Source: an uncultured bacterium
GTDB lineage: Bacteria > Babelota > Babeliae > Babelales > Vermiphilaceae
Direction: 5' to 3'
Assembly: GCA_963701085.1 (NCBI GenBank)
Contig: OY969561.1
Location: forward strand, 384,001-448,000
DNA: 64,000 nt
Below, in pieces: positions 1 through 51,000 of the stretch. How positions within the stretch are numbered: the first letter of the stretch is position 1; the number at the start of each line of letters is the position of its first letter. Made by a program: the position numbers.

Positions 1-3000
1 GAAAATAATAAAAAGATGAAGAAAATTATTAATAATCTTATGGCTCGTATTCAGAAGTTAGAAGCACATATTCCTTCGATACATTTTTGAAGACAAAAAC
101 ACTCAGGATGAGCGGCGCTTCGATATGCCTGGCACTCTAGAATCCTAGGTTTCTTTGGTCATCCTGAGTGTTCTTCGAGCTTTGCGAAGAAGAATGTATC
201 GAAGGGCTGATAATGGATATTATGTTAAAAGAGAAATAAGCGGAGCTTTATTACTGTGGAACTTAGTTCCACCGCAATAAAATCTGTTGCCGCACAGCAT
301 TGGCACAAAATAATGTCCCTTTTTTGTTGGTACAACGATTTTTTTAGTAATTTTGGTGAGGTAGTCATAAGAATATGGTTCAAGAGTAAAATCAATATTT
401 TTTGCGCAATCAACAAAATAAATTTTATTCTTATTAACTCGTGGCAACAAGGGCAAAATGGATTCATAAAGCCGTTGCTCGCCTTCTAATAATAAGTTGG
501 TCGGAACAGAAAAAGAAAAAAGAAGGTTTTTGCACCACACATCACCCTTTTTTATAATCTGATGATACGAAAACGGTGTTGTTGAACTCTCACTATCTAT
601 TTTTTGTGCATGTTCAAGAACAAATCCTTGCGTTGCTGAAAGCATTGTTAAAAAAATGATTGGTGTATTGCCAAAATTAGTAACTGATGTTGCATCGCTA
701 TGATGATAGGTACATTGCATAATGTGATAGCTCGCTCCATTGTTAGTTGTGCACCGCTCAATATAAAACAGTTGATCATCAATTTTTTGTGGATACAGAT
801 AATCACTCCCCTTGTGCCATGCTAATATTTCTAGCGTACCATCAACATGCAATTCAAATAGTGCAAAATTATCATTATAGTACGCGCTGCAGTAACATGT
901 CTGTTCATTAATCCATTGTAGACCATTAATGCCAAACAAAGGCTCATCAAAATCAATTGCTTTGGGTGAACGTTTTTCGAATGATTTTATGCGCAAGCGG
1001 CCATTATCAATAAAACTGAATCCTGCATTATTAGGTAATAATTGTAACCCTGCCGGGTTAAAAACCGACCATAACATTTGTTCTGTTTGATTGGTTTGTG
1101 TGTTCCATTCAAGTAATTCTATGTTTGTTGGAGAGTGCTGATGAATGTATAAAACCGTTGAACCATTGCCAAGAGATGCAACAGGATAACAATATTCAGT
1201 TGCAGGCCTTATTTGTGTATAAAAAAATAAAAAACAATAAAGCAATCGCATACATATTCCTTTGCAATGATTAATTTAAAAGATATGCGCTTTGCACAAT
1301 AAACACAACAAAAAGAGCTCCGCATCATTGCGGAGCTCTTTTATAGATGCTGTTTCTTATATTATGAACGCGCTTCTAAGACTGCTACACGTGCAGCAAG
1401 TTTTTTAAGCTCATTCAATAATAATACTGGAAGTACTTGATATTGAACGGAGAATGGTTGACCATCTGCCTCGTAAACAACAATACCAGGCATTACTTGA
1501 TCAACTTCTTCAGCAACTAAACCATACTGTTTTGTTTCTGTTGCATCGTTATTATATACAAATGTTACAGGATTAAGTTGATAAATCATTTCTGAATCAG
1601 TAGCCATTGACTCAATGTCATGTTTGAATCTTCTAGAAGAGGTCTGTGTTCCGAGCTGTCCACTTGGGACAACTTGAACTGTAAGGTTGCCAACAAGACC
1701 TTGGTTTGCACCATAAATACCCTGGATGAAGCATGCTGTTTGTGATGTTCCAATTCGTATATGATCACTTTCAGCTCCGGTAGCTGGGCTCGCATTAATA
1801 TAAATATCATTGTTACCTGTGGTGAGTCCGGAAGCTGCACTGACACCAATCGCAATATTACCGCTTCCTGTTGTAGCGCCAAAAAGTGCACTATCACCAA
1901 CTGCTGTATTATTGAGACCTGTTGTATTACTGATCATAGTCTGATAACCAAGTGCTGTATTACCAAAACCTGTTGTGTTTGCGGCAAGTGATCCAAAACC
2001 AGCTGCTGTATTATTGGCACCTGCAGTGTTAGCTACAAGTGAATTGAAACCAAGTGCAGTATTGGATACACCTATTGTGTTTACGGCAAGTGCACTGGTA
2101 CCAAGTGCAGTATTAGATGTACCTACTGTGTTTGCGGCAAGTGCACTGGTACCAACTGCAGTATTACCATCGACTGTGTTTGCGGCAAGTGCACTGGCAC
2201 CAACTGCAGTATTATTAACACCTACTGAGTTTAGTACAAGTGCATTGAAACCAACTGCAGTATTAGCATCGCCTGTTGTGTTTAATGAAAGTGCTTGGAA
2301 ACCTACAGCCGTGTTTGTAGAGCCTATTGTGTTTAATTCAAGTGCATTGAAACCAACTGCAGTATTACTACCACCTGTTGTATTACTTACTAATGCCTGA
2401 TAACCAACTGCAGTATTGTTACCTGCTTGATCATTTGCTAATGCATGATAACCAAACGCACTATCATTACTTACTGCTGCACTATTGAGCATTGCACCAA
2501 CTCCAACAGCAGTGTTGAAAGTACCTGTTGCGTTTGATAGAAGAGCATTAGAACCAACCGCAGTATTATTAATACCGATTGTGTTCGATAGTAGCGAGTG
2601 GTATCCAATTGCAGTATTATCGGTACCTGTTGTATTTAGGGCAAGAGCAGAACAACCAACCGCCACATTATCAAACCCTGTTGTATTGTTCTGAAGAGAT
2701 ACCGCACCAACGGCAGTATTACAATTAGCTATGTTTAATAGAAGAGCATTAGAACCAACTGCAGTATTATTAATACCGGTTGTATTTGATACTAGCGCGT
2801 GGTATCCAATTGCAGTATTCTCGCTACCTGTTATATTTGCATTAAGGGTTCCACAGCCAACCGCCACATTATGTATCCCTGTTGTATTGCTTGCAAGAGA
2901 TATTGCACCAATCGCAACATTACAACTACCTATTGTGTTTGCAGTAAGTGCTTGTTGACCAACGGCAGTATTATTGATACCTGTTGTGTTTGCATCAAGT

Positions 3001-48000: not shown

Positions 48001-51000
48001 TTATTACTAACGATGCAAATGACGTATCACTCTCAACAAATGCAACAAGTGCAAATACACCAACTACTATTGTTGCTCGTGATGCTTCAGGTAACTTTGC
48101 TGCACAAAAATCAGTATGACTGATGGTGTTCATAGCGGAAATCTTATCCTAAGCACTGAACCAAGTACATCTTCAGCAGGTAATATCTTAAAAGGTTCAA
48201 GCAGCTTTATTCATGATTTTGGAACGAATAATACATTTGTTGGGATTAGCGCGGGTAACTTTACTACAAGTGGTTCAGGTGCAAATACAGGTATTGGTGC
48301 TAATGCTTTAACAGCAAATGGTACCGGAACAAATAACACCGCTATTGGTTATAATGCATTACTTGTGAACGTAATTGGTTTTTCTAATACCGGAGTTGGT
48401 TATAATGCGCTTGCTGCAAACATAACGAATGGCAGTACCGCTGTTGGTGCACTTGCACTTCAGGCAAACACAACCGGAGTATTTAACACCGCTGTTGGAT
48501 ATAGTGCATTGGCGGTGAACGCAACAGGTGTCAATAATACTGCTATTGGTTATAATGCGCTTGCCAATACAACCGGCGGAGCGGGTGCAAATACCGCCGT
48601 TGGTTCAACTGCACTTCAGGCAAACACAACAGGTATTGATAATACTGCTCTTGGTGCTGGTGCACTTGCATTAAACACAGTGGGTGCTGATAATACTGCT
48701 GTTGGGTGGCTTGCACTTCAAGTAAACACAACAGGTATTAATAATACTGCAATTGGTAGTGCCGCTCTGGGTCACAATACAATTGGTATCTCGAATACTG
48801 CTGTTGGCTTCTCTGCACTGAATGCAAATACTACAGGCAACAGTAATACTGCAATTGGTACTTCATCTCTTGGTGCAAATACCACAGGTCAAAATAATAC
48901 TGCAGTTGGTGATCATGCACTCGCTCTTACTACAACAGGAACTGGCAATACCGCTATTGGTCAAGGCGCATTAGCGGTAAACACAACAGGAATTCAGAAT
49001 ACAGCTCTTGGTAATGGTACATTCGCTGCAGTTACAACAGGAGGTACTAATATTGCGATTGGCCACTTAGCAGGTGGTACACTCACCACAGGAAGTAGTA
49101 ATATTTATATTGGTGTGAGTATGAATGCTCAATCCGCAAGTGAAAGCAATATTACGCGAATTGCTAATATTAGCGGTGTTAACGTTGGTGCTGTTCCGGC
49201 AGTCCTTGTTACTGCAACAGGTCAACTTGGTGTTAATACTTCAACAAGAAAAGTAAAACATGCTATTGAAGATATGAATGATGAATCAGCACGCATTCTT
49301 GATTTGCGTCCGGTAACATTTGTGTATAATAGCGATGCAACAGAAACAAAACAGTACGGTTTAATTGCAGAAGAAGTTGATGCACTATTCCCTGGGATTG
49401 TAGCAAGAAATAAAGATGGTGAAGTAGAAACAGTTCTGTATCATGTATTGCCAGTGCTTTTATTAAATGAAATGCAAAAGCAATACAATGAATTACTTAA
49501 CCATAAAGCTCTTATTGCTCAACTTGAACAACAAGCACAAAATTTTGCTGAACGCCTTAATGCATTAGAAGTACATTAATATAATTAAACTGCTTTATAC
49601 AACGAAATACCAGCTATCTGCTCAGATAGCTGGTATTTCGTTGTATAATTTTTTCTAAACGCCATAATGCTCGTAAATGACTAAATTGTGATGTAAACAT
49701 GAATCATTAGGTGCTTGCTCTAACGCTTTAAGCACCGCTGCTTTACCTATTGCATACTCTCCCACATAGACAGCACATTGTCCTAAAATATCATAACGCA
49801 AATAATCATAGACTCTGTTTTCCACAAATAATCCATTATTTAATGGATATGGCAATTGAGCAGCACGTATTGCAAACAAATAAGCAATCTGATGTTGATT
49901 GTGACGAATGTAGTAGCACGCAATTCTAAAAAGTGGCTCTGCGCGAAACGGCAACATGGAATAAGCCTTTAAATAATAATCAACCGCATCTTCCTCCGTA
50001 TAGTGCGAAACTACCTTACTTATTATATGACTCAGCTATAATATGCTCAATCGCACAACCTATTCGATACGCCGACAAATATTTTTCTTCACTTACTTCT
50101 CCCATCTCCAGTCTTTTTTGATAATAAAAAATAGCTTGTTCCCAATCATCCATAAATTGACATGTTTGCGCCAGATAAAACGATGTACGCATATTAGTTG
50201 GATCATCTTCTAAACTTTTTTTAAGCAATGCGTAATCACGAGCACAACGATCTTTTGATTTTTCTTGACCATACCGCTGTGGTTTATATTCAAAATAAAC
50301 AGAATCAGAAACAATGCCACTTGCACTATCAGGTATTGATTCATGAACAACGCCCTTATAGCGAACATTATAACCTTGCCGTATAAGTCGAGGTACATAA
50401 TTATTAATATTATCCTGAACCGTCAAAAGGTGCATCAAATAACAACTACCCGTACAATTTGGTGCGATATAATCTTTATGTATTTTACAAAAATCAATTA
50501 ACTCCGAAACATTGTGCGTATACCATTCAGCATCAAGCATTAACAAAAAACTGTTATTAACAAAAATCTGCTCTGCTAAATCCAATGCTCTATTACGCGA
50601 AGTTGCAAAATCTACGAATGGTTCTTCCATAATATATGCGTGCTTAAGATCATGATCATTAAAATATTCACGTATCACCTGTTGTGTTCCATCCGTTGAA
50701 CCAGTATCATACACCAAAAAACTCGTAAGTCCTGCATCAACAAAAGGCTTTAACGTAGGAATAATAACATCAGCTTCATTTTTAACCATGATAACAACGG
50801 TTAAAAGAAATTCATGTTCATCTTTAAAACAGGGATCATGTGCTGCTATACAGGGAAAAATGATAAAGAAACTACCTATGATAAAAAGAGAATTGAACCA
50901 TTTCATGAAAAAAACCTCTTTTTTGTGAATAAAACAATAAAAGGAGGTTAGCAAAAAAGTCATAAAAAAACCACCGCATTGATAATTAAATCAATGCGGT

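What a model noticed while it worked through the whole genome (the two positions that open the first line are those of the whole stretch)
1..49579. 61-kb island of 11 giant secreted fibre proteins with collagen repeats and S74 autochaperone ends
Eleven adjacent genes (503 to about 5,970 aa when frameshifts are read through) encode proteins with a signal peptide and, in ten of them, a shared ~120-aa N-terminal domain. Then follows a variable repetitive shaft (beta-helix-like, tail-fibre-type and collagen repeats) and a C-terminal Peptidase_S74 intramolecular-chaperone domain. With three more genes at C1:14987-25253 and collagen-only relatives, the family takes about 6.7% of the genome. Copy numbers differ sharply between congeners. 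I infer trimeric surface fibres for host attachment.
Evidence so far: Pfam S74 and Collagen hits. 29-ORF paralogue cluster. 14 S74 domains by six-frame search; 26 of 101 phylum genomes have any; congeners have 17, 10, 2, 1 and 1. Signal peptides and G-X-Y counts. 14 N-domains and 14 C-domains, of which 10 and 11 lie in the island. Single frameshifts join the 4385 + 1480 aa and 1981 + 1201 aa ORFs. One segment resembles a phage capsid decoration protein, 9nx3_A, E 4e-11. No mention of collagen or fibres in three Dependentiae papers (adhesin and tail searched only in call 59). The finding spans contig positions 372141 to 433579; this window holds only 384001 to 433579 of it.
(Added by a program. 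Inside this text positions count along the whole contig: contig position 384,001 is position 1 of the stretch shown here. "Call 12" and the like, gene names such as g00115 and contig names such as C1 are that model's own, and its searches are not shown. The text may have been shortened before it was handed on; [...] marks where a part breaks off. The agent that wrote the report below was given it as the finding of a first reader that could run no searches.)

Follow-up and report, generated by a model that had tools for sequence, protein, structure and literature searches.

The report
Phage-like surface fibre gene island
A small parasite-type bacterial genome devotes about 5% of its DNA to one cluster of very long, secreted, phage-tail-fibre-like proteins that probably form three-stranded fibres on the cell, resembling the adhesive fibres recently found in the predator Bdellovibrio.

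Summary
The window holds 7 of the 11 island genes plus the last 90 bases of an eighth. Each has a Sec-type signal peptide, a shared ~105-aa N-domain, a modular repetitive shaft and a C-terminal Peptidase_S74 self-cleaving chaperone with an intact Ser-x4-Lys dyad.

Shaft plus S74 is clearly phage tail-fibre/tailspike material: PHROG E-values reach 1e-140, and identity to Pelagibacter and Roseobacter phage fibres is 39-41%. No phage or contractile-tail genes were found in the genome, and both flanks are housekeeping genes.

A congener has the same flanks with about 5 kb (2 fibre genes) where this genome has 61 kb, so the locus is hypervariable.

Corrections:
- Collagen-like G-X-T stretches occur in only 3 of the 7 window genes and are short (about 100 aa).
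- The eight frame breaks in five genes are probably assembly errors, because conserved housekeeping genes elsewhere in this assembly are split at a similar density.

The closest known system is the Bdellovibrio MAT fibre family. The architecture is the same, but the N-domain here is helical with no clear match among solved folds, and the MAT capping-loop motif is absent.

Trimer state, surface display and host attachment remain inferred. New variant of a known kind; interest 0.6.

The parts
1..90 (+). Last 90 bases of island gene 4 (contig ORF 382741-384090, S74-bearing piece); the rest lies upstream of the window
   Evidence: ORF 382741-384090 (+) carries a PF13884 match at 383677-383862
1362..3980 (-). 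Gene 6, intact, 872 aa. Signal peptide; N-domain at 3531-3845; 17-aa-period beta-solenoid shaft; S74 at 1479-1640; C-terminal coiled coil
   Evidence: AlphaFold model has mean pLDDT 76: helical N-domain at residues 34-152, strands every 17 residues from 250 to 700, and an S74 fold at 780-870. S780 and K785 are invariant in a 54-sequence alignment
4141..13786 (-). Gene 7, about 3,214 codons in three frame pieces. Signal-peptide piece from the ATG at 13786; break near 13655-13667; 1981-aa piece; break near 7758-7761; 1201-aa S74 piece. N-domain at 13320-13610, collagen-like stretch at 12780-13073, S74 at 4321-4482
13887..17948 (-). Gene 8, intact, 1353 aa. Signal peptide; N-domain at 17499-17804; long 17-aa repeat shaft (51-nt period, about 25 copies, 15067-16386); S74 at 14085-14246
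18074..25320 (-). Gene 9, about 2,414 codons in three frame pieces. 1271-aa signal-peptide/N-domain piece; about 80-aa middle piece; 1064-aa S74 piece. Breaks near 21518 and 21280. N-domain at 24862-25179, head-decoration-like module, S74 at 18272-18430
25405..28086 (-). Gene 10, intact, 893 aa. Signal peptide; N-domain at 27664-27948; S74 at 25591-25752
28187..46122 (-). Gene 11, the giant: about 5,977 codons in two pieces (4385 aa + 1480 aa) with one break near 32972. Signal peptide; N-domain at 45658-45945; collagen-like stretch at 45130-45468; tail-fibre repeats; capsid-decoration-like segment (aa 2232-2387); 17-aa solenoid; S74 at 28430-28591
46315..49579 (+). Gene 12, about 1,087 codons in three pieces (274 + 318 + 487 aa). 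Breaks near 47082 (run CCCAAAGG) and 48108 (run CAAAAATC). Signal peptide; N-domain at 46459-46770; collagen-like stretch at 46993-47333; S74 at 49241-49402. Divergently oriented to gene 11

Best explanation
The island encodes a lineage-specific family of Sec-exported, phage-derived fibre proteins.

Proposed mechanism, with the status of each step:
1. A classical signal peptide takes each chain across the inner membrane. (Sequence shown; export inferred.)
2. The C-terminal S74 intramolecular chaperone brings three chains together and nucleates folding of the beta-solenoid, tail-fibre-repeat and short collagen-like modules from the C-terminal end. It then cuts itself off at the conserved Ser of the Ser-x4-Lys dyad. 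This releases a piece of roughly 90-130 aa, including a coiled coil. (Homology and residues shown; activity inferred from K1F endosialidase, T5 pb1, MyRF and Bdellovibrio Bd3182.)
3. The conserved ~105-aa helical N-domain stays at the cell-proximal end and holds the fibre on the envelope. (Inferred by analogy with MAT fibres; partner unknown.)
4. The paralogues differ in shaft length (about 0.5 to 6 thousand residues) and in module content. They would give the cell a set of fibres of different reach and binding properties for contact with, or uptake by, its protist host. (Inferred.)

The locus, between ruvC/dnaB and GT2-recF-dnaN, expands and contracts between congeners. The frame breaks in five genes are most likely assembly errors, not decay.
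For: Architecture.

S74 domains:
- 14 of 14 keep the S-x4-K dyad.
- S780 and K785 are invariant in a 54-sequence alignment.
- The family profile hits 6f45 (E 4e-10) and MyRF 7dc3 (E 3.9e-8).

Phage origin of shaft plus S74:
- PHROG tail-spike, tail-fibre and virion-structural families match with E-values down to 2.9e-140.
- 103 phage records match by tblastn. The best are Pelagibacter, Roseobacter and Methylophilales phage tail fibres at 39-41% identity. No match reaches query residues before 210.

Cellular, not phage, context:
- No sheath, Baseplate_J or tube gene was found in the genome, which is 92.6% complete.
- The flanks are tRNA ligase, L9, DnaB and RuvC on one side, and GT2, RecF, DnaN, XerD and ProRS on the other.

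The N-domain is a real, narrow family:
- 233 of 1.84 billion representative proteins match at E<=1e-3, nearly all at residues ~45-150, directly after a leader.
- Of the 53 hits of 401 aa or more that I scanned (three longer ones left out for size), 38 end in S74, 2 have collagen only and 13 have no Pfam hit.
- It occurs in 16 of 151 phylum genomes and in 8 of 8 congeners.

Hypervariable locus: congener G005 keeps both flanks at 52-88% identity, with about 5.2 kb between them against 61.4 kb here.

Paralogues are old. Only one pair (genes 3 and 4, outside the window) exceeds 90% nucleotide identity.

Analogy: Bdellovibrio MAT fibres have 21 members, 13 with S74. They have a signal peptide plus a conserved ~130-aa N-domain, proven self-cleavage and surface location (PMC10769870, passages read).

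Breaks as errors: of 191 congener ORFs with a match in this genome, 16 are split between frames here (19 rows). Thirteen of the 16 have 58% identity or more. That is about 14 clean junctions in 196 kb compared (about 0.7 per 10 kb), against 8 in 61 kb of island (1.3 per 10 kb). Several sit at short homopolymers, and one split gene is a secretin.
Against: - No expression, localisation, cleavage or binding data exist.
- No outer-membrane export route is evident for a 0.5-6 thousand residue trimer. No TolC/OEP or YadA anchor was found, and only secretin genes are present.
- The ~100 residues before the S74 cut are fairly conserved among paralogues. The distal tip therefore does not look like a hypervariable receptor-binding tip of the kind seen in phage fibres.
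- The monomer model folds the shaft as a single-chain solenoid. This neither shows nor excludes a trimer. Foldseek gave only low-TM (0.13) LRR/solenoid matches for the whole chain.
- Collagen-like stretches are short and interrupted.
- The island break density is about twice the control value, so some breaks may be real.
- Organism identity (Babeliales) rests only on the source names of close homologues.
Confidence: 0.6

Rival explanations
1. The proteins are exported fibres that do not act as host adhesins. They might form a protective or structural coat (a 'nap' like the Bacillus exosporium BclA layer), a matrix between cells, or they might be released to act inside the host vacuole.
For: - Signal peptides are present, but no anchor motif was recognised.
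- The N-domain has no clear match among solved folds: best VIA-align Z is 6.3, and Foldseek gives 0 matches at E<=0.001.
- The pre-cleavage tip is conserved, not hypervariable.
- The G-X-T collagen-like stretches resemble those of coat proteins such as BclA (1wck_A, E 4.3e-6).
- A GT2 glycosyltransferase sits next to the island and is kept in the congener.
Against: - Copy number and content vary strongly between congeners at a fixed locus. This fits host-interaction genes better than a structural coat.
- The best-studied system with the same architecture, the MAT fibres, is adhesive.
Confidence: 0.22
2. The genes are tail fibres of a prophage, tailocin or extracellular contractile injection system (eCIS) encoded in this genome.
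For: - Shaft and S74 modules match phage tail-fibre and tail-spike families strongly.
- eCIS fibres with S74 and collagen shafts are known (PMC12923769, passages read).
Against: - No sheath (PF04984), Baseplate_J (PF04865) or tube (PF06841) was found in the 92.6%-complete genome. The only gp25 match is below threshold (16.5 bits, E 0.0055, at C1:32315-32512), and Pfam does not confirm it on the ORF.
- All 7 window genes carry Sec signal peptides. Virion proteins assembled in the cytoplasm do not need them.
- Both flanks are housekeeping genes, and the only recombinase is XerD-type.
- Eleven tandem fibre genes without any other virion gene is not a phage layout.
Confidence: 0.03
3. The array is largely a decaying set of pseudogenes (five of eleven genes broken). 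Alternatively, the breaks at short homopolymers are real on/off phase-variation switches.
For: - There are eight frame breaks in five genes. At least three sit at short runs: CCCAAAGG, CAAAAATC and AATTTCC.
- One 460-nt metagenome contig (X1, 10 other letters, depth about 4) lacks 17 bases at 47086. That would put the two collagen pieces of gene 12 in one frame, so frame state differs between related sequences.
Against: - Conserved housekeeping genes of the same assembly are split at a similar density: 16 of 191 compared ORFs, including a secretin gene. Some of these breaks are also at short homopolymers.
- Apart from the breaks, every piece stays open for hundreds to thousands of codons.
- All 14 S74 dyads are intact.
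- The runs are only 3-5 bases long. From general knowledge, not from a call, that is short for slipped-strand switches.
Confidence: 0.12

Closest known systems
Bdellovibrio bacteriovorus MAT (mosaic adhesive trimeric) fibre family (Caulton et al., Nat Microbiol 2024, PMC10769870; passages read)
   Same: - A bacterial, non-phage multigene family.
- Signal peptide, then a conserved N-domain of about 105-130 aa, a long repetitive trimer-type shaft, and in most members a C-terminal S74 chaperone-protease.
- Some members lack S74. Here, three N-domain proteins have collagen-like repeats but no S74.
- Found in an organism that must attach to and enter another cell.
   Different: - The N-domain here is predicted helical (pLDDT 90.9), whereas the MAT N-domain is described as beta-rich.
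- The MAT capping-loop motif V-G-G/N-x3-P-x3-L is found in 0 of 20 family ORF pieces.
- The dyad reads S-[S/T/A]-x-x-x-K, not SDxxxK.
- Collagen-like stretches and members of up to about 6,000 aa occur here.
- Genes are clustered in one 61-kb hypervariable locus.
- The target would be a eukaryotic host, not bacterial prey.
- I had no MAT sequences, so no direct sequence comparison of N-domain or shaft was made.
Phage tail fibres and tailspikes with a C-terminal intramolecular chaperone (K1F endosialidase, T5 L-shaped fibre pb1, S16 gp37 6f45; Pelagibacter/Roseobacter phage tail fibres)
   Same: - Shaft plus S74 are homologous: 39-41% identity over 63-70% of the 871-aa protein.
- PHROG families 23837, 6002, 4636, 1980 and 5342 match.
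- 6f45 matches the family profile at E 4e-10.
   Different: - The phage proteins lack the signal peptide and the N-domain found here. No phage match starts before query residue 210.
- No virion genes are nearby or elsewhere in the genome.
Bacterial collagen-like surface proteins (Bacillus BclA, Pasteuria Pcl, Streptococcus Scl, Legionella Lcl)
   Same: - G-X-T type triplet stretches follow an N-terminal globular domain.
- BclA 1wck_A matches at E 4.3e-6.
- The adhesin role of Pcl and Lcl in parasites of eukaryotes comes from abstracts seen in the listing.
   Different: - Collagen here is a short module (98-113 aa) in 3 of 7 window genes.
- Folding is presumably driven by S74, not by a C1q-like or V domain. 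This is inference.
Trimeric autotransporter adhesins (YadA type)
   Same: - Short-period 'NTAxGxxAL' beta-roll repeats resemble head repeats.
- One source (JGI) names some homologues 'trimeric autotransporter adhesin'.
   Different: No YadA anchor (PF03895) was found in the genome. The C-terminus is S74, not a membrane barrel.
eCIS tail fibres with S74 or collagen shafts (PMC12923769; passages read)
   Same: Modular fibres that combine S74, collagen-like shafts and varied binding modules, used by bacteria against eukaryotic targets.
   Different: No contractile-injection genes were found in this genome. Signal peptides are present here.

Membership tests
Peptidase_S74 / intramolecular chaperone auto-processing domain | Match to PF13884 above the curated cut-off at the C-terminus | tested here: met
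   7 of 7 window genes (33.7-44.9 bits on the ORFs against a cut-off of 22). 14 matches in the genome, all over the cut-off
Peptidase_S74 / intramolecular chaperone auto-processing domain | Catalytic Ser-Lys dyad (Ser, then Lys five residues on) | tested here: met
   14 of 14 domains read S-[S/T/A]-[R/K/E]-[R/K]-[F/V/Y]-K. S780 and K785 are invariant in 54 sequences
Peptidase_S74 / intramolecular chaperone auto-processing domain | Fold and sequence likeness to solved chaperone domains | tested here: met
   Family profile against PDB: 6f45_A E 4e-10 and MyRF 7dc3_A E 3.9e-8. Foldseek 7dc3_C: probability 1.00, TM 0.55 normalised by target
Peptidase_S74 / intramolecular chaperone auto-processing domain | Trimerisation-dependent self-cleavage | not testable with these tools
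   Needs expression of a C-terminal fragment and of a Ser-to-Ala control
Bdellovibrio MAT fibre family | Signal peptide followed directly by a family-wide conserved N-domain | tested here: met
   Signal-peptide features in 7 of 7 window genes. The N-domain sits at residues ~45-150 in own copies and in database hits
Bdellovibrio MAT fibre family | The N-domain is the beta-rich ~130-aa MAT domain | tested here: not met
   The model of the N-domain (pLDDT 90.9, pTM 0.82) has six helices of 9-21 residues and two 3-residue strands. The MAT domain is described as beta-rich. I had no MAT sequence, so no direct sequence comparison was made
Bdellovibrio MAT fibre family | Capping-loop motif V-G-G/N-x-x-x-P-x-x-x-L in the beta-helix | tested here: not met
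   0 of 20 family ORF pieces hold the motif. A relaxed form hits only genes 3 and 4, once each
Bdellovibrio MAT fibre family | Location on the cell surface and a role in contact with the target cell | not testable with these tools
   No culture, proteome or RNA data. No RNA run holding the stretch was listed
Collagen triple-helix repeat proteins | Uninterrupted G-X-Y triplets long enough for a stable helix; PF01391 above cut-off | tested here: inconclusive
   3 of 7 window genes have 98-113 aa of triplets with interruptions; the longest clean run is 9 triplets. PF01391 scores 30.5 and 29.5 bits (over 27.2) in genes 11 and 12, and 25.7 (under) in gene 7
Trimeric autotransporter adhesins | C-terminal YadA-type membrane anchor | tested here: not met
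   PF03895 was not found in the genome at E<=0.001 (92.6% complete). The C-termini are S74 domains
Prophage / tailocin / eCIS tail fibre | Co-occurrence with sheath, tube, baseplate or other virion genes | tested here: not met
   PF04984, PF04865 and PF06841 were not found. PF04965 gave only 16.5 bits, under the cut-off. Flanking genes are housekeeping

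The most novel reading that the evidence does not exclude
Babeliales carry a domesticated, phage-derived fibre arsenal. 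It is fused to a lineage-specific helical anchor domain whose fold matches no solved structure clearly. It is kept at a fixed chromosomal locus that expands from 2 genes to 11 or more between species of one genus. Under this reading the repertoire (length classes up to about 6,000 aa, module mix) sets which protists the parasite can attach to or be taken up by. It would be a bacterial counterpart of phage receptor-binding cassettes and of giant-virus fibrils, and a second, independent invention of the Bdellovibrio MAT strategy, aimed at eukaryotic hosts.
Probability: 0.35. Interest if true: 0.78.

Novelty: new variant of a known kind. Interest (0 to 1): 0.6.

Why it matters
Dependentiae/Babelota are widespread obligate parasites of protists. 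How they recognise and enter hosts is not known.

By term search I found no mention of fibres, collagen or S74 in five papers on the phylum: PMC6561590, PMC4776705, PMC4378268, PMC12644861 and PMC12172432 (supplements not read). Only type IV pili are proposed there for attachment.

This family takes about 5-7% of a 1.2-Mb reduced genome. It is present in 42 of 151 phylum genomes sampled and varies sharply between congeners. That makes it a concrete, testable candidate for the host-contact apparatus.

It also extends the MAT principle (phage fibre modules plus S74, turned into cellular adhesins) beyond Bdellovibrio. Finally, it offers a new N-terminal domain whose envelope partner could reveal how such fibres are mounted on a diderm cell.

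Tried and rejected
- N-domain trimer test (complex prediction, 3 copies, alignment A2): no support, score 0.01 against a mark of 0.42. No conclusion drawn.
- N-domain fold search. Foldseek against PDB gave 0 matches at E<=0.001. VIA-align wide gave a best Z of 6.3, within the noise for helical domains. Pfam gave nothing better than E 0.48. The ESM Atlas gave no usable hit.
- Whole-protein Foldseek gave only LRR/solenoid matches at TM 0.13. These are uninformative about the shaft.
- NCBIfam: 0 families for the four fibre proteins scanned.
- Reads. No RNA holder was listed. The best DNA holder shares 0.21 of the sampled words. Laid contigs from X1-X4 are short (about 200-460 nt, depth about 2-5). 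Apart from the X1 contig with the 17-base deletion across the 47082 site, none bridged a break, so the breaks could not be checked directly.
- The search for related loci. Single-protein scans found no relative in viral contigs or genome contigs. The method finds close relatives only.
- Rfam on the window: no match.
- Recent gene conversion or assembly collapse among window paralogues: no nucleotide repeat of 150 nt or more at 90% identity or more lies inside the window.
- The weak gp25-like match at C1:32315-32512 had no Pfam support on the ORF.
- Literature. 'Dependentiae' with 'tail fiber' gave 1 unrelated paper. 'Dependentiae' with 'collagen' gave 7 unrelated papers. Wider term sets gave nothing on such fibres in this phylum. 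Supplements were not read. Subscription journals are not in the library.

Full report
WHAT IS THERE

The window is positions 384001-448000 of a single 1,198,634-bp contig with 37% G+C. From 1362 to 46122 the minus strand carries a head-to-tail row of very large ORFs. From 46315 to 49579 the plus strand carries three abutting ORFs. Together with four genes just upstream of the window, they form a 61,439-bp block (contig 372141-433579), which is 5.1% of the genome.

In window terms the genes are:
- gene 6: 1362-3980, 872 aa, intact
- gene 7: 4141-13786, about 3,214 codons
- gene 8: 13887-17948, 1353 aa, intact
- gene 9: 18074-25320, about 2,414 codons
- gene 10: 25405-28086, 893 aa, intact
- gene 11: 28187-46122, about 5,977 codons
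- gene 12: 46315-49579, about 1,087 codons

Bases 1-90 are the end of gene 4. The 343-aa ORF at 220-1251 is not a family member.

SHARED ARCHITECTURE

1. Signal peptide. All seven window genes start with a K/R-containing stretch. A hydrophobic core follows (15-residue Kyte-Doolittle maximum 1.9-2.35), then a small-residue site such as PLSA, PLQA or LIA. None has a lipobox Cys. Gene 7's leader lies in another frame just upstream of its main ORF.

2. N-domain. A ~105-aa domain follows the leader, with a consensus of the form Y-I-x-L-G-K-E-x-S-N-I...L-D...S-x-L-x-E-L-x-x-H-I-x-x-G...Y-A-E. A profile of it finds 16 copies in the genome, 10 of them in the island.

3. Shaft. It is built from several module types:
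- A 17-aa 'NTAxGxxALxxNTTGxx' solenoid repeat (51-nt period, up to about 25 copies, with a 207-nt super-repeat).
- 'RDxSGNF'-type tail-fibre repeats.
- Head-decoration-like modules (phrog_2647, E 2e-22; PDB 9nx3_A, E 4.3e-8).
- Short collagen-like stretches in genes 7, 11 and 12 only.

4. C-terminus. Each gene ends in a Peptidase_S74 domain and then a coiled coil.

COLLAGEN IS A MINOR FEATURE

The stretches are 98-113 aa of G-X-T-type triplets with interruptions. The longest clean run is 9 triplets. Pfam Collagen scores sit around the cut-off: 25.7, 30.5 and 29.5 bits against 27.2. The other four window genes have no run of four or more triplets.

THE S74 END

The genome has 14 PF13884 matches, all over the cut-off: 11 in the island and 7 in the window. 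All 14 keep a Ser followed five residues later by Lys, reading S-[S/T/A]-x-x-x-K. In a 54-sequence alignment with database homologues, S780 and K785 of gene 6 are invariant.

A profile of that alignment hits the solved chaperone-bearing fibre tip 6f45 (E 4e-10) and the MyRF ICA domain 7dc3 (E 3.9e-8). The AlphaFold model of gene 6 (mean pLDDT 76) matches 7dc3_C by Foldseek with probability 1.0. From the established behaviour of this domain in K1F endosialidase, T5 pb1, MyRF and Bd3182, I infer trimer-dependent folding of the preceding shaft and self-cleavage at the Ser. This was not and cannot be shown here.

PHAGE ANCESTRY, CELLULAR CONTEXT

The shaft plus S74 region matches PHROG tail-spike, tail-fibre and virion-structural families with E-values down to 2.9e-140. 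tblastn finds 103 phage records. The best are tail fibres of Pelagibacter, Roseobacter and Methylophilales phages at 39-41% identity over 63-70% of the 871-aa protein. None reaches the first ~210 residues. More than 7,700 database proteins resemble gene 6. Sources name some of them 'tail fiber domain-containing protein [Candidatus Babeliales bacterium]'. That naming is my only basis for the taxon (lineage).

The genome (92.6% complete) gave no match to sheath, Baseplate_J or tube families. The only gp25 match is below threshold, and Pfam does not confirm it on the ORF. The left flank is a class I tRNA ligase, L9, DnaB and RuvC. The right flank is a GT2 glycosyltransferase, RecF, DnaN, an XerD-type recombinase and ProRS. 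This is a chromosomal gene family built from phage fibre modules, not a prophage, tailocin or eCIS.

THE N-DOMAIN

Modelled alone with 60 sequences, it is confident (pLDDT 90.9, pTM 0.82). It is mostly helical, with two 3-residue strands. It has no Pfam family and no Foldseek match at E<=0.001. The best VIA-align Z is 6.3, which is within the noise for helical domains.

Against 1.84 billion representative proteins the profile finds only 233 hits at E<=1e-3. Nearly all lie at residues ~45-150. Of the 150 listed hits I scanned the 53 of 401 aa or more, leaving out three longer ones for size. Of these, 38 end in S74, 2 have collagen only and 13 have no Pfam hit.

The N-domain occurs in 16 of 151 phylum genomes, including all 8 congeners (3-13 copies). 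S74 occurs in 42 of 151. Other genera with many S74 genes therefore use other N-termini. That fits a modular 'anchor + shaft + chaperone' design.

A HYPERVARIABLE LOCUS

In congener G005 (98% complete, one contig) both flanks are conserved at 52-88% protein identity. They lie only about 5.2 kb apart, with two fibre-type genes between them, against 61.4 kb here. Alignments run across G005's contig ends, so its contig appears continuous there.

S74 match counts in the 8 congeners are 1, 10, 1, 17, 2, 14, 17 and 13. Relatives have clusters with open frames of up to 7,403 aa. Within the island, only genes 3 and 4 (outside the window) are recent duplicates, at 93-96% nucleotide identity. No other pair reaches 90% over 150 nt. 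The paralogues are therefore old and diverged.

THE INTERRUPTIONS

I find eight frame breaks in five genes: one in gene 4, two in gene 7, two in gene 9, one in gene 11 and two in gene 12. Each is a one-base shift, and paralogue alignments abut on both sides.

As a control I took 264 stop-to-stop ORFs of 200 aa or more from 400 kb of G005. Of these, 191 matched this genome (median identity 69%). Sixteen of the 191 are split between frames here (19 rows), and 13 of the 16 have 58% identity or more. That makes about 14 clean junctions in 196 kb compared. Several are at short homopolymers. One split gene is a secretin.

The density is about 0.7 per 10 kb, and this is a lower bound. The island has 1.3 per 10 kb. 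I therefore read the island's breaks as mostly assembly errors (about 70%). Some may be real.

Public runs could not settle it. Only short, low-depth contigs matched. One X1 contig lacks 17 bases at 47086, which would restore gene 12's frame.

COMPARISON WITH KNOWN SYSTEMS

The closest known system is the Bdellovibrio MAT fibre family (PMC10769870, passages read). It has 21 proteins, 13 ending in S74. Each has a signal peptide and a conserved ~130-aa N-domain. Self-cleavage is proven for Bd3182, and members locate to the predator surface.

The present family works like it in architecture. It fails two MAT-specific features:
- The N-domain is helical, not beta-rich.
- The capping-loop motif is absent, in 0 of 20 ORF pieces.

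It is not a trimeric autotransporter, because no YadA anchor was found. It shares only a short module with BclA-, Pcl- or Lcl-type collagen adhesins.

OPEN POINTS
- How a trimer of this size crosses or is mounted on the outer membrane. Secretins are present and no TolC was found.
- What the N-domain binds.
- Whether the fibres bind hosts at all.
- The ~100 residues before the cut site are rather conserved among paralogues. Specificity, if any, would lie in shaft modules or in length.

LITERATURE

Term searches of five Dependentiae/Babelota papers found no mention of fibres, collagen, tail fibres or S74. Library-wide searches found none either. Supplements were not read.

VERDICT

This is a real, well-defined family. 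It is a new variant of a known kind (MAT-like, S74-matured cellular fibres). The function is inferred. The collagen emphasis and the decay reading should both be toned down.

Noticed in passing
window 220-1251 (-): A 343-aa ORF with no Pfam, PHROG or NCBIfam hit sits inside the island. Relatives occur in 37 of 61 genomes of the family sampled, including genomes without S74 genes. In congener G006 it also lies among fibre genes (C1:248232-249254). It was not found in G005 with this query.
   Followed up: partly
whole genome G000, e.g. C1:151843, 298994, 944958, 976844, 999154, 1004137: Conserved genes of this assembly are split between reading frames relative to congener G005: 16 of 191 compared ORFs. 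Most lie in 939-1005 kb, and one is a secretin gene. Several breaks are at short homopolymers. This looks like residual indel error in the assembly.
   Followed up: partly
window 50016-50963 (-): A family-2 glycosyltransferase lies directly beside the island and is conserved at the same place in G005 (66% identity). The collagen-like stretches are G-X-T type, as in glycosylated BclA. A link is speculative.
   Followed up: no
window 26777-27733 (+), 31272-32363 (+), 33110-34135 (+) and others: Long antisense ORFs lie inside the fibre genes and are paralogous to each other only because the sense strands are. They are almost certainly not genes, and they inflate paralogue counts.
   Followed up: partly
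contig C1:14972-25253, 67680-72472, 249304-252402 (loci L002, L004, L005): Six more N-domain proteins lie outside the island. Three have a Cys-rich knot, collagen and S74. Three are collagen-rich without S74, with long G-X-Y tracts (windows of four consecutive G-X-Y triplets start across about 235-610 aa of each protein).
   Followed up: partly
window 32000-51999, runs X1-X4: Short contigs identical to the window (0 other letters over 200-380 nt, depth about 2-5) occur in three lake-water metagenomes and one soil metagenome. The organism or a very close strain is therefore present there at low abundance.
   Followed up: no
window 57221-57673 (+) and 61501-63612 (+): A 150-aa ORF has sub-threshold mucin-like and histone-H1-like (HC2) matches. 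A 703-aa ORF has no family.
   Followed up: no
window 51225-54614 (-): recF and dnaN are followed by an XerD-type recombinase, not by dnaA. There is no GC-skew turn inside the window.
   Followed up: no
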